A DNA stretch of 64,000 bases from the NCBI RefSeq assembly GCF_017348835.2, contig NZ_CP071375.1, one strand, 5' to 3'. Numbering within the stretch: the first letter of the stretch is position 1; the number at the start of each line of letters is the position of its first letter. Made by a program: the position numbers. The DNA is from Escherichia coli. Its GTDB lineage: Bacteria; Pseudomonadota; Gammaproteobacteria; Enterobacterales; Enterobacteriaceae. Below are positions 1-3,000 of the stretch, piece by piece.

Positions 1-3000
1 TTGTGAGTACAATATCTGCATGAGCCATCTCAGAAGAAAGTTCAGCCATACTGCATTTGTTGATTTTAAATGCCGTAATACCATATTCAGCACATACTGA
101 CTTCACTTCATCAGCAGCAAGCGTAGATGTAGCGACACCGCTACCACAAGCAACAAGAATATTAATCATAATAAACTCCAGTTTTTACTATTGGATTATT
201 TTGGACACAAAAAGTGCTTTTGCATCATCGACGGGAAGTGTCAGTAAGCTTTGGTAAAATTCTTCATTTTGGAGATGGTTAAATAATGACTTTAACAATC
301 GAAGCTGGTCAGCAGGATCCGTAACAATAAGATTAACGACGAGTCTGACCCACAATATTCCATCTTCATCAGCCCTGTTCACAGGTATTGCGTCTGGCAG
401 ACGGATGATATAAATAGCCGGTTGATTCGCATGTTCACTATCACAGTGTGGTATAGCGATAGAATAACCTTCCAGTTCTATTCCTGTCGGATATTCCGCT
501 TCGCGTTTACGCATAGCATTGAGCCAGCTCTCTTTCACCGTATTCGTTTCACGATGCGTGTTATAAATATGTTCAAGCACGGCATCGTAGTTCTGTAGTC
601 CCGCACCATCGGCAACACTGATCGATATCATATCCTTCCCCCTCACCCCACAATGCTCACATGAGCATTGAACAATCTTCATATGAGCAGTTATAGCACA
701 ACGATCCTGTGGATGAATGACGAGATCTGAGAAATTAAATCCAGATCACAAAAGCACATAATGGCGACAGTATTTATGCTCATATGAGCAAATCATGATT
801 CAAAAAATGATTTCTTCGAAAAAAATGAGGTAAAACTGGCAATATGCAGAGGATGCACTCAATAGAGGACGCTAAGCAAGCATCGCCATGGATGCTCACT
901 TGATAATTAGGAAATGATTACATTTGGCAAAGCTGATTCGAAGGGAGAAGGCGTGTCGTAGTGAGTTCTAACAGGTTATTACTGACGTGTATTTTGCGAC
1001 TTCGGCAATCCCCTCTTTGTCGGCATGATCGTTGGTTATAAGGGCGGTGATCTCCGACCAGTCGCAGATCTTAAACAAACTGCTGCGCTCAAACTTGGTG
1101 TAATCGCCGAGGATATATTTTTTGTCTGAGTGCGAAATTATCGTGCGATCCAAAAACGCATCAGAAGAAGAAGGCGTCGATGGACCAGTCATGTTACTAA
1201 AGCCGTCGGTTCCAATAAAACAGAGATCAACATGTATATCGTTGATCATAGATACCGCCCACCCCCCAAACACTGAGGAACTCTTTCTACGCAGTTCGCC
1301 GCCAAAGAGAAAAACCTGGTTGTCAGATTCAATCAACACACTGGCAACGGGGAGCGAATCTGTGAAGATTTTAAACCCAGATTTCATACATAACAGGTTA
1401 GCCAGCTCAAAAGTGGTACTGCCCGTACCGATAATCATCGAACTATTAGGTGGAATGAAATCAAGCGCTTTGCGAGCAATCGCCTTCTTATAAGAGTTAT
1501 TTTCTTTTTCCCTGACCTGAAAGGGATGCTCTATGGCCCTTTGCTTTAAAGTCGCCCCACCATGGCTTTTGATCAGCAGCCCTTTTTGTTCAAGATGGGT
1601 CAAATCTTTCCTGATGGTTTCATACGTTACTTCATACTTTCGTGCAAGATCACTGACATAGACCGTACCTGCCGACATTAAGTCTTCAAGTATTAACTTT
1701 CGCCTTTCATCAACCAGATACATCCTTCCTCCTGAAAACTATTACCCATCTTAGAAAACGCCAAGCATAGCACAGATGATGCAAACAAAAACAAACACTA
1801 ACAGTGGAAAGTACAAATAAACCCAATAAAGACAATAGTTCAAAAACCATATATCCGATTGATAATAAATGAGTTTTTATTATTCATTACAACGCCACTG
1901 TACAATCCCAATTTGTCCCAATTGGCTTAATTTATTAATTATTTGTTTTTGTTGGTTTTTAATATCATAAAAATCAATTAGTTATAAATTTTGTGATTCA
2001 GATCTCAATTGACAACCAATATTTACCAATAGCATACTTGGCTTTAGTTACTTAACGACAGGCAAAATGAAATGAAAACAAAGATTGCTATCGCAAGCGA
2101 TGATGTAGGTTTTGCACGTAAAGAGGAGATAAAAAAATACCTCATAGAAGAGAAAAACATGGAGATCGTGTACGATCCCGTCACATGTAAGGAACAAGGT
2201 GTCAATAACTTCGCGCGTCTGGCCGACGAAATGGCAGGCATTATTCAACGCGATGAGTGCCGTCTGGGAATTTACATTTGTGGGACTGGCATTGGCTTTA
2301 CTTGTCAGATCAACAAACACTGGGGCATAAGAGCCGTTGCGGTTACTAACCCCTACTCCGCAAAGCGGGCGCGACTCAGCAATAACGCACAAGTTATTGG
2401 ACTGGGTTGCCGGGTCAACGATCTCGAATACAGCAAAATGATTGTCGATGCATGGTTGGATAACCCATTCGACTTCACCACCGCCAGAGAAAATTCTAAA
2501 AAGAACTTGCTAGAAGCTGAACGTAACGATAATGCATTGCTGGTTAAGCCCGCTGATGTACGCTGGAATATGGGTTTCCGACCAGATGATGAAAAATCTG
2601 AGGGTTAATGTATGGAACTGATCACGCAATTTATAAACGATCTGGGAAATTTTATATTTATCCCGGTCATCTTCCTGGTACTGATGAAGATACTTGGCCG
2701 TCCTCTTTCAGAATGTATCTCGTCTGCCATCAAAGTCGGCATTGGTTTCATTGCGTTAACCATGACCATCAAACTGATGCTGGAAAAAATGCAACCGGCA
2801 GTCACCGGATTAGCAGAAGCAACAGGTTCCTCGCTCAGTGCCATCGATGTTGGTGGCGCAGCGACTGCAGTTATGGGATTTGGCTCCAGCATGGGCGCTA
2901 TCATTATTCCCCTCTGTGTTGCGGTAAATATTGCAATGCTGGTCGCCCGCCTGACTGACTGTGTTAACGTTGATGTTTTCAACCTTCATCAAAATGCGTC

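What the first reader, a model, noticed from the sequence alone, without database searches (positions are those of the whole stretch)
653..790. Recurrent palindromic motif TGCTCATATGAGCA in PTS-island intergenic regions
A perfect 14-bp palindrome (777-790), a near-palindrome ATGCTCACATGAGCAT (about 653-668) and a CATATGAGCA half-site (about 680-689) lie upstream of the minus-strand EIIA gene. Degenerate copies (TGCTCATAAGAGA / TGCGCATATGAGAA, about 5837-5865) lie upstream of the SorC-type regulator gene. Repetition of one dyad motif in two promoter regions suggests a shared operator for one of the island regulators.
Basis: seen in the sequence. Interest (0 to 1): 0.4.

Follow-up and report, generated by a model that had tools for sequence, protein, structure and literature searches.

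The report
Operator sites of a SorC-type repressor
The repeated palindrome is real and is almost certainly the DNA docking site of the island's SorC-type sugar regulator, which switches off one sugar-uptake operon and its own gene; this is an ordinary kind of gene switch, though this regulator-site pair is conserved across several bacterial phyla.

Summary
The dyad wwATGCTCA-YR-TGAGCATww occurs at 653-668, 675-690 and 776-791, and more weakly at 892-907, upstream of the minus-strand EIIA operon. Two degenerate copies lie at 5837-5865, upstream of the SorC-type regulator gene. Sites this strong are expected about 0.016 times per 5 Mb, yet two lie 123 bp apart.

Comparative genomics points to the SorC-type regulator, not the DeoR-type one. 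In seven genera the locus has only the SorC gene, the dyads and the first PTS operon, with no DeoR cassette. In 35 of 42 loci with distant homologues (28-47% identity, four phyla, all sharing the helix SRFKVARLI or SRFRVAR[IL]I) a GCTCA-NN-TGAGC dyad lies next to the regulator gene, at 91 times the background density.

In 13 aligned genera the sites keep fixed positions around an invariant extended -10 element. One site covers the predicted start site, one lies at about +22, one at -100 and one at -216. A CRP-like block lies at about -60.

The likely mechanism is repression by a SorC-family tetramer on a 38-bp double operator, helped by the upstream sites, plus autorepression. No binding was tested. 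It is a new member of a known kind, of modest interest.

The parts
653..668 (.). O1, the strong proximal operator dyad ATGCTCACATGAGCAT. Predicted at +16 to +31 in the leader of the EIIA operon.
   Evidence: 26.5 bits. Conserved at the same position in 13 genera (A2). Layout.
675..690 (.). O1', a weaker dyad ATCTTCATATGAGCAG with one good half-site. It abuts the -10 element and covers the predicted transcription start.
   Evidence: 15.0 bits. TGCTCAyrTGAtt is conserved directly after TATAAa in all 13 aligned genera. Lies 20-22 bp from O1 in 15 of 15 orthologous site pairs.
690..698 (-). Predicted extended -10 promoter element TGCTATAAC of the EIIA-EIIB-EIIC-rpe-SDR-hxlB operon. There is no recognisable -35.
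   Evidence: G..GCTATA is invariant in alignment A2. The transcription start near 683 is inferred, not measured.
735..750 (.). CRP-like block, TGTGATCTGGATTTAA on the minus strand, centred at about -59.5. Tentatively a class I CRP site.
   Evidence: TGTGATC is invariant in 13 genera. The right half matches TCACA at only 2 of 5 positions, so the assignment is tentative.
776..791 (.). O2, a strong distal dyad ATGCTCATATGAGCAA containing the perfect 14-bp palindrome, centred at about -100.
   Evidence: 26.7 bits. Conserved, and 100-105 bp from O1' in the orthologous loci.
892..907 (.). O3, a weak far-upstream dyad ATGCTCACTTGATAAT, centred at about -216.
   Evidence: 11.2 bits in E. coli. The equivalent site scores up to 25 bits in other genera and lies 116-122 bp from O2.
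188..631 (-). PTS EIIA gene, the first gene of the regulated operon. EIIB continues at 1-169. EIIC, rpe, SDR and hxlB lie beyond the left edge of the window.
   Evidence: Pfam PTS_EIIA_2. RefSeq annotation of the identical strain PE164.
4811..5776 (-). SorC-type regulator gene (321 aa), the proposed binder. Its recognition helix is SRFKVARLI, residues 43-51.
   Evidence: Pfam Sugar-bind PF04198, E=4e-51. Full-length match to K. pneumoniae SorC 2w48, E=3e-23, and to B. subtilis DeoR 8r7y.
5837..5852 (.). Degenerate dyad upstream of the SorC-type gene, CATCTCTTATGAGCAT on the minus strand. It overlaps the predicted spacer and -35 region of that gene's promoter.
   Evidence: 9.0 bits. The TGAGC half-site is invariant in 14 genera (A3).
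5850..5865 (.). Second degenerate dyad upstream of the SorC-type gene, CTTCTCATATGCGCAT on the minus strand, 13 bp from the first.
   Evidence: 10.5 bits. An equivalent CTCATATGTGCAT is present in Erwinia, UBA5654 and Entomohabitans but not in the Klebsiella/Enterobacter/Citrobacter/Brenneria group.
5825..5830 (-). Predicted -10 hexamer TATACT of the SorC-type gene's promoter.
   Evidence: T.TACTCTTTTGA is invariant in alignment A3. The assignment as a -10 is inferred.

Best explanation
The dyads are operator sites for the island's SorC-type regulator (window 4811-5776, minus strand). By analogy with solved SorC-family repressors, each 16-bp dyad would bind one dimer formed through the N-terminal HTH domains, and two dimers would join through their sugar-binding domains into a tetramer.

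At the EIIA operon, the adjacent pair O1' and O1 (675-690 and 653-668, centres 22 bp apart, 38 bp in all) covers the predicted transcription start and early leader, directly downstream of an invariant extended -10 element. An occupied pair would block RNA polymerase. The distal sites O2 (about -100) and O3 (about -216) would raise local repressor concentration, or be bridged by looping. They enclose a CRP-like activator site.

The two weak dyads at 5837-5865 overlap the regulator gene's own promoter and would give autorepression. A phosphorylated intermediate of the PTS pathway would release the repressor.

What is shown: the sites exist, they are far beyond chance, their sequence and spacing are conserved, and they co-occur with this regulator clade. 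What is inferred: binding, the repressor sign, the tetramer, looping, the start site and the effector.
For: The locus holds the SorC gene, the dyads and operon 1 without any DeoR-type gene or second operon in Izhakiella, Erwinia, Pseudocitrobacter, Brenneria, Pantoea (two species), UBA5654 and Rouxiella.

A GCTCA-NN-TGAGC dyad (up to 1 mismatch) lies within 300 bp upstream or 150 bp downstream of the homologue in 35 of 42 loci at 28-47% identity, from Alphaproteobacteria, Actinobacteria, Chloroflexi and Clostridia. That is 55 hits in 19 kb against 22 in 700 kb, a 91-fold difference. The neighbouring genes differ among these loci (ABC, MFS or PTS transporters, zinc dehydrogenases, FGGY kinases, SIS isomerases), so the regulator is the shared element.

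All homologues share SRFKVARLI (three have SRFRVAR[IL]I), which aligns with the DNA-contacting helix of B. subtilis DeoR. L015, whose homologue lacks the DNA-binding domain, has no dyad (best 2.2 bits).

Site positions and spacings are conserved at 20-22, 100-105 and 116-122 bp around an invariant TGcTATAAa. Spacings of 19-21 bp and 88-95 bp recur in the distant phyla.

SorC-family repressors bind as tetramers to two half-operators totalling 39-45 bp at promoters (PMC11229326).

The DeoR-type control region has no dyad and has its own repeats.
Against: No binding, expression or start-site data exist for this locus. Everything about the mechanism is inference.

The distant loci were retrieved using the peptide pattern SRFK[VA]ARLI, so there is no broad control set of SorC homologues with other helices. 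L015 is the only such control.

The autoregulatory sites in E. coli are weak (9-10.5 bits, a level expected about 1.5 to 3.5 times per 64 kb by chance), and one of them is not conserved in all genera.

Some distant loci with the helix and with upstream sequence available show no convincing dyad (L030, L058), and L017 has only half-sites.

K. pneumoniae SorC is reported to act both positively and negatively (from memory), so the upstream sites could serve activation.

The half-site centres are about 8 bp apart, closer than the roughly 11 bp in the B. subtilis DeoR half-operator, so the docking geometry may differ.
Confidence: 0.8

Rival explanations
1. The SorC-type protein binds the dyads but acts as an activator or a dual regulator. 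The upstream sites O2 and O3 would recruit or help RNA polymerase when the sugar is present, as reported for K. pneumoniae SorC.
For: Two of the four sites lie upstream of the promoter, at about -100 and -216. The promoter has no recognisable -35 and so may need an activator. The dual role of SorC itself is recalled from memory and was not checked here.
Against: The two sites with the most strictly conserved positions overlap the start site and the early leader, which is a repressor layout. The characterised family members DeoR, CggR, LsrR and EryD are repressors. A conserved CRP-like block already offers an activator.
Confidence: 0.12
2. The dyads are operators of the DeoR/GlpR-type regulator encoded directly upstream of the EIIA operon (968-1723, minus strand).
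For: In E. coli that gene is the nearest regulator gene and lies on the same strand.
Against: Seven genera keep the dyads and operon 1 without this gene nearby. The gene's own divergent control region has no dyad of 8 bits or more and has different conserved repeats, AAACAAAAACAAA and TTTGTTTTnGTTTG. The distant loci share only the SorC homologue.
Confidence: 0.03
3. The palindromes act at the RNA level, as a leader hairpin or terminator-like structures.
For: The O1 region can fold into an 8-bp hairpin in the predicted leader, -12.6 kcal/mol, z = -2.5.
Against: Any palindrome folds this way. The hairpin leaves the ribosome-binding site free. O2 and O3 lie upstream of the promoter. The stems have no following T-run and were not called as terminators. 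There was no Rfam match. The bases are conserved in identity rather than by covariation; for example C6 and G11 are the same in all 58 symmetrised half-sites.
Confidence: 0.03
4. The sites are chance palindromes or non-functional sequence.
For: The count of 14-mers with up to 3 mismatches in the window is not above shuffles on its own.
Against: Two sites of 26 bits or more lie 123 bp apart where 0.016 are expected per genome. Position and sequence are conserved in 13 genera, set in otherwise variable intergenic DNA. There is a 91-fold enrichment next to distant homologues.
Confidence: 0.01

Closest known systems
Bacillus subtilis DeoR, the SorC/DeoR-subfamily repressor of dra-nupC-pdp, and its operator
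   Same: The protein has the same architecture: a short N-terminal HTH and a PF04198 sugar-binding domain, with a full-length alignment to 8r7y at E=7e-18. The regulator gene lies upstream of the operon it controls. The operator consists of two dimer-binding units totalling about 39 bp at the promoter, against 38 bp for O1'+O1 here. Binding is by a tetramer formed as a dimer of dimers. The two arginines flanking the helix core are shared (S-R-x-x-V-x-R-L).
   Different: The operator sequence is different: ATTGAACAAAATTTCAAT, with arms about 11 bp apart, against TGCTCA-NN-TGAGCA, with arms about 8 bp apart. The helix core is PTVS in DeoR and FKVA here. The DeoR operator lies at -60 to -21, whereas these sites lie over the start site and leader, with two further sites at -100 and -216. 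Identity is only about 25%. The NCBIfam DeoR equivalog scores 134 bits against a cutoff of 420.
Klebsiella pneumoniae SorC (sorbose operon regulator, PDB 2w48)
   Same: It is the best solved-structure match (E=3e-23, residues 16-320). It is an enterobacterial regulator of a PTS sugar operon.
   Different: The similarity is low, the recognition helix differs (YRTTISRLL), the PTS belongs to a different family (mannose-type sorbose PTS, from memory), and its operator was not compared here.
E. coli LsrR (SorC family, AI-2 uptake repressor)
   Same: It has the same fold and forms tetramers. Automatic annotation labels the distant homologues 'LsrR (DeoR family)'.
   Different: The NCBIfam LsrR equivalog scores 84 bits against a cutoff of 486. 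The helix is different. The effector (phospho-AI-2) and the regulon are unrelated.
EryD and its eryO operator (erythritol repressor of Brucella/Ochrobactrum, SorC family)
   Same: It is a polyol-responsive repressor described as SorC-family, with an experimentally mapped operator at a promoter.
   Different: The eryO sequence, gaaaaaaaatgcgccatctagaaaatttt, contains no GCTCA-NN-TGAGC dyad.

Membership tests
SorC family of transcriptional regulators, SorC/DeoR subfamily (the proposed binder) | C-terminal sugar-binding effector domain of about 250 aa (PF04198 / IPR007324) | tested here: met
   Pfam Sugar-bind, E=4.3e-51, residues 72-320.
SorC family of transcriptional regulators, SorC/DeoR subfamily (the proposed binder) | Short N-terminal HTH DNA-binding domain of about 50-60 aa, not the roughly 100-aa winged helix of CggR | tested here: met
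   Residues 16-71 align with the DNA-binding domains of SorC 2w48 and DeoR 8r7y. CggR matches only in the effector domain. This is sequence-level evidence; no structure was modelled.
SorC family of transcriptional regulators, SorC/DeoR subfamily (the proposed binder) | Binds DNA as a tetramer (a dimer of dimers) | not testable with these tools
   Known for DeoR, CggR and LsrR. Inferred here only from the site pairs.
SorC-family operator architecture | Two adjacent dimer-binding half-operators totalling about 39-45 bp at or near the promoter | tested here: met
   O1'+O1 span 38 bp with centres 22 bp apart, over the predicted start site. A 20-22 bp spacing is seen in 15 orthologous site pairs, and 19-21 bp in 8 pairs from distant loci.
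SorC-family operator architecture | Same recognition sequence as a characterised member (DeoR TTGAA/TTCAA, or eryO) | tested here: not met
   The sequences are unrelated. The specificity is therefore distinct and apparently undescribed.
SorC-family operator architecture | Repressor released by a phosphorylated sugar effector | not testable with these tools
   Inferred from the family and from the PTS, dehydrogenase and isomerase gene content.
DeoR/GlpR-family (AgaR-like) operator (the rival) | The motif co-occurs with the DeoR-type gene and is present in that gene's own control region | tested here: not met
   The dyads are present without the gene in seven genera. There is no dyad in 1724-2071, which has other conserved repeats instead.
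Class I CRP-dependent promoter | A TGTGA-N6-TCACA site centred near -61.5 | tested here: inconclusive
   The invariant TGTGATC left half is centred at about -59.5 from an inferred start site. The right half matches at only 2 of 5 positions.

The most novel reading that the evidence does not exclude
The dyad GCTCA-NN-TGAGC together with the recognition helix SRFKVARLI defines an undescribed clade of SorC-family repressors spanning several phyla. The protein-DNA code would have stayed fixed from Enterobacterales to Actinobacteria, Chloroflexi and Clostridia, while the controlled transport systems (PTS, ABC, MFS) and enzymes were exchanged. In Enterobacterales the clade controls an uncharacterised Gat-family PTS pathway that includes a 6-phospho-3-hexuloisomerase, which suggests an unknown hexitol or rare-ketose route. 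The pair would be a portable repressor-operator module.
Probability: 0.45. Interest if true: 0.45.

Novelty: new member of a known kind. Interest (0 to 1): 0.33.

Why it matters
The result assigns a specific operator and a regulatory layout to an unstudied accessory sugar island, present in about 4% of complete E. coli genomes and in many Enterobacterales. It also separates the roles of the island's two regulators. It gives a directly testable repressor-operator pair: a defined 16-bp consensus, invariant bases to mutate, and a predicted promoter. The conservation of the same helix-operator pair across phyla could help annotate hundreds of SorC-family regulons automatically, and could provide a portable sugar-phosphate-responsive switch. 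It does not change how this family is understood.

Tried and rejected
The DeoR-type regulator was considered as the binder and rejected, because loci lacking the gene keep the dyads and the gene's own control region has different repeats.

An RNA element was considered. Rfam gave no match, and the leader hairpin is what any palindrome would form.

Identity with a known SorC-family operator was checked. The B. subtilis DeoR operator and EryD's eryO have different sequences.

Literature searches for the exact sequence found only an unrelated paper. Searches for SorC with hexuloisomerase and PTS, and for a SorC polyol regulon motif, found nothing relevant. A Bifidobacterium regulon paper mentions SorC only in passing. 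RegPrecise and subscription journals could not be searched, so an earlier in-silico prediction of this motif cannot be excluded.

The plain mismatch count against shuffles is uninformative on its own. It was replaced by a weight-matrix score distribution and by the location of the hits.

A whole-genome scan of the host strain was not attempted, because it would need about 100 fetch calls. The window, 1.03 Mb of other loci and an exact score distribution were used instead.

Full report
**Where this is.** The window is E. coli chromosome, 100% identical to strain PE164. The finding lies in a roughly 9.5-kb accessory island between a tRNA-Asn gene and ldtA (erfK). The whole region is present in 232 of 5,426 complete E. 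coli genomes.

The island holds the following:
- **Operon 1**, on the minus strand: EIIA (188-631), EIIB, a Gat-family EIIC, an rpe-like epimerase, an SDR dehydrogenase and the 6-phospho-3-hexuloisomerase HxlB. EIIC and the genes after it lie beyond the left edge of the window.
- **A DeoR/GlpR-type regulator gene** (968-1723, minus strand).
- **A divergent operon 2**: RpiB/LacAB-type isomerase, EIIC, EIIB and EIIA (2072-4759, plus strand).
- **A SorC-type regulator gene** (4811-5776, minus strand).

**The observation.** All five 14-mers with up to 3 mismatches in the 64-kb window fall in two intergenic regions, 632-967 and 5777-5949. That count alone is not above shuffles. A position weight matrix gives a clearer answer. 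Sites of 25 bits or more are expected 2e-4 times per 64 kb and 0.016 times per 5 Mb, yet 653-668 (26.5 bits) and 776-791 (26.7 bits) lie 123 bp apart. Outside the island, the window has one hit of 8 bits or more.

**Which regulator.** A scan of one genome per species with an alignment of SorC-type orthologues returned 58 loci. Mapping the island genes onto them shows two layouts.
- *Simple layout:* Izhakiella, Erwinia, Pseudocitrobacter, Brenneria, two Pantoea species and the uncultured Enterobacteriaceae bacterium UBA5654 carry only the SorC-type gene, the dyads and operon 1. Rouxiella carries the same parts in a different order. None has an orthologous DeoR-type gene or operon 2 within 10 kb.
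- *Composite layout:* E. coli, Klebsiella, Enterobacter, Citrobacter, Providencia and Entomohabitans carry the DeoR-type gene and operon 2 as a cassette. It sits between the stop codon of the SorC-type gene and the dyads.

The dyads therefore stay with the SorC-type gene and operon 1. The control region of the DeoR-type module (1724-2071) has no dyad. It has its own conserved inverted repeats, AAACAAAAACAAA and TTTGTTTTnGTTTG.

**Deep conservation.** The same scan also returned homologues at 28-47% identity from Alphaproteobacteria, Actinobacteria, Chloroflexi and Clostridia.
- In 35 of 42 such loci a GCTCA-NN-TGAGC dyad (up to 1 mismatch) lies within 300 bp upstream or 150 bp downstream of the homologue. 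That is 55 hits in 19 kb against 22 in 700 kb, a 91-fold difference.
- The neighbouring genes differ: ABC, MFS or PTS transporters, zinc-dependent dehydrogenases, FGGY kinases and SIS isomerases. The regulator is the shared element.
- All these homologues carry SRFKVARLI, or SRFRVAR[IL]I in three. This segment aligns with the helix of B. subtilis DeoR (ISRPTVSRLL), whose arginines contact bases in the solved complex. Mapping the paper's R34 and R39 onto R44 and R49 here is my inference from the alignment.
- Caveat: SRFK[VA]ARLI was one of the two peptide patterns used for retrieval, so the set is selected for that helix.
- One natural control exists. L015 (Commensalibacter) keeps only the effector domain and has no dyad, best score 2.2 bits.
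- L019 and L031, which have SRFRVARLI, carry a variant, GCTCAttTGAT. L030 and L058 show no site.

**Anatomy in Enterobacterales.** An alignment of the operon-1 upstream region from 13 genera (A2) shows variable DNA interrupted by conserved blocks. The positions below are for E. coli, relative to an inferred start near window 683.

| Element | Window coordinates | Predicted position |
|---|---|---|
| O3 (weak dyad) | 892-907 | centre about -216 |
| O2 (strong dyad) | 776-791 | centre about -100 |
| Invariant TGTGATC block | 735-750 | centre about -59.5 |
| Invariant extended -10, TGcTATAAa | 690-698 | -15 to -7 |
| O1' (weak dyad) | 675-690 | -7 to +9 |
| O1 (strong dyad) | 653-668 | +16 to +31 |
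| Start codon of EIIA | 629-631 | +53 |

There is no recognisable -35. Spacings between successive sites fall into three narrow classes in the orthologous loci: 20-22 bp (15 pairs), 100-105 bp (13 pairs) and 116-122 bp (10 pairs). In the distant phyla, spacings of 19-21 bp (8 pairs) and 88-95 bp (9 pairs) recur.

**Upstream of the SorC-type gene.** An alignment of 14 genera (A3) is conserved even though the flanking genes differ. It has an invariant TGAGC half-site and an invariant T.TACTCTTTTGA block. I read T(A/G)TACT within that block as the -10 (window 5825-5830). The E. coli dyads at 5837-5852 and 5850-5865 score only 9.0 and 10.5 bits. They would overlap the spacer and the -35 region. 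The second is conserved in only some genera.

**Mechanism (inferred).** SorC-family repressors are dimers of dimers. Each DNA-binding-domain dimer reads one palindromic half-operator, and the effector domains bridge two such binding events. Full operators are 39-45 bp and lie at promoters. Sugar phosphates are the effectors (PMC11229326).
- The O1'+O1 pair is 38 bp with centres 22 bp apart, which fits that pattern. It sits where bound protein would block open-complex formation or promoter escape.
- O2 and O3 probably add avidity or looping. Their strictly conserved spacing argues for a geometric constraint.
- The weak sites at the regulator's own promoter suggest autorepression.
- A CRP-like block suggests catabolite control, but its right half is poor, so this is tentative.
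- I put about 0.8 on the statement that these dyads are operators of the SorC-type regulator. I put about 0.6-0.65 on the specific picture of repression by occlusion with tetramer bridging.

**Rivals.**
- The DeoR-type regulator as binder is contradicted.
- An RNA-level role is unlikely. Rfam gave no match. The leader hairpin (-12.6 kcal/mol, z = -2.5) leaves the ribosome-binding site free. Two sites lie upstream of the promoter. The bases are conserved in identity rather than by covariation.
- Chance is excluded by the statistics and the conservation.
- An activator or dual role for the same protein remains possible.

**Comparison with what is known.** The protein meets the testable defining features of the SorC/DeoR subfamily. 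It is not an equivalog of DeoR or LsrR. Its operator differs from the B. subtilis DeoR operator ATTGAACAAAATTTCAAT and from EryD's eryO. I found no paper describing this motif or this island's regulation. RegPrecise and non-open literature could not be searched.

**Verdict.** This is a real, well-supported operator system of an ordinary kind: a new member of a known kind. The somewhat unexpected part is that one helix-operator pair is kept across phyla while the regulated genes change.

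Noticed in passing
window 1784-1795 and 1942-1953 (also L002, L010, L011, L012, L014, L020): The divergent region between the DeoR-type gene and the RpiB-type gene has a perfect 12-bp inverted pair, AACAAAAACAAA and TTTGTTTTTGTT, 146 bp apart. Both arms are conserved in seven genera. This is a likely operator of the AgaR-like DeoR-type regulator and is separate from the SorC dyad.
   Followed up: partly
window 968-4759, compared with L003-L008 and L016: The DeoR-type gene and operon 2 (RpiB-type isomerase, EIIC, EIIB, EIIA) behave as a separable cassette. In some genera it lies exactly between the stop codon of the SorC-type gene and that regulator's operators; in others it is absent. 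Whether it was inserted or deleted is unknown.
   Followed up: partly
window 1992-2007 and 2009-2038: Upstream of the RpiB-type gene there is a good CRP-like site, TGTGATTCAGATCTCA, immediately before a near-consensus promoter (TTGACA, 18 bp, CATACT). Both are conserved in the seven cassette-bearing genera.
   Followed up: no
window about 5875-5895 (minus strand) and the equivalent positions in alignment A3: A conserved nGTGn-N6-TCACA-like block (ATCACAnAA) lies about 70 bp upstream of the predicted -10 of the SorC-type gene in most genera. It may be a class I CRP site. It is weaker in E. coli (GTTGTTTCGAATCATA).
   Followed up: no
L010 5251-5778 and L014 11000-11527: Klebsiella oxytoca and a Citrobacter species carry an extra HxlB-like gene (about 50% identity to the island's HxlB) immediately downstream of the SorC-type gene, on the opposite strand.
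   Followed up: no
L002 15939, L003 12127, L005 7369, L006 12155, L012 15528 (inside the EIIB gene of operon 1): A half-site-like sequence, AACCnCATATGAGCGT (9-13 bits), recurs at the same position inside the EIIB coding sequence in several genera. It is probably just a conserved coding sequence, but an internal operator half-site is not excluded.
   Followed up: no
L001 1295-2808 (outside the window, upstream of the island): In strain PE164 an IS3-family element interrupts yeeO, next to a tRNA-Asn, cbl, nac, tRNA-Asn stretch. The island sits directly beside the second tRNA-Asn, a typical integration hotspot.
   Followed up: no
window 188-682: The longest ORF for EIIA starts at an ATG at 682, inside site O1'. 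RefSeq and the cross-species alignment instead support the start at 631, preceded by a GGAGG-like ribosome-binding site.
   Followed up: partly
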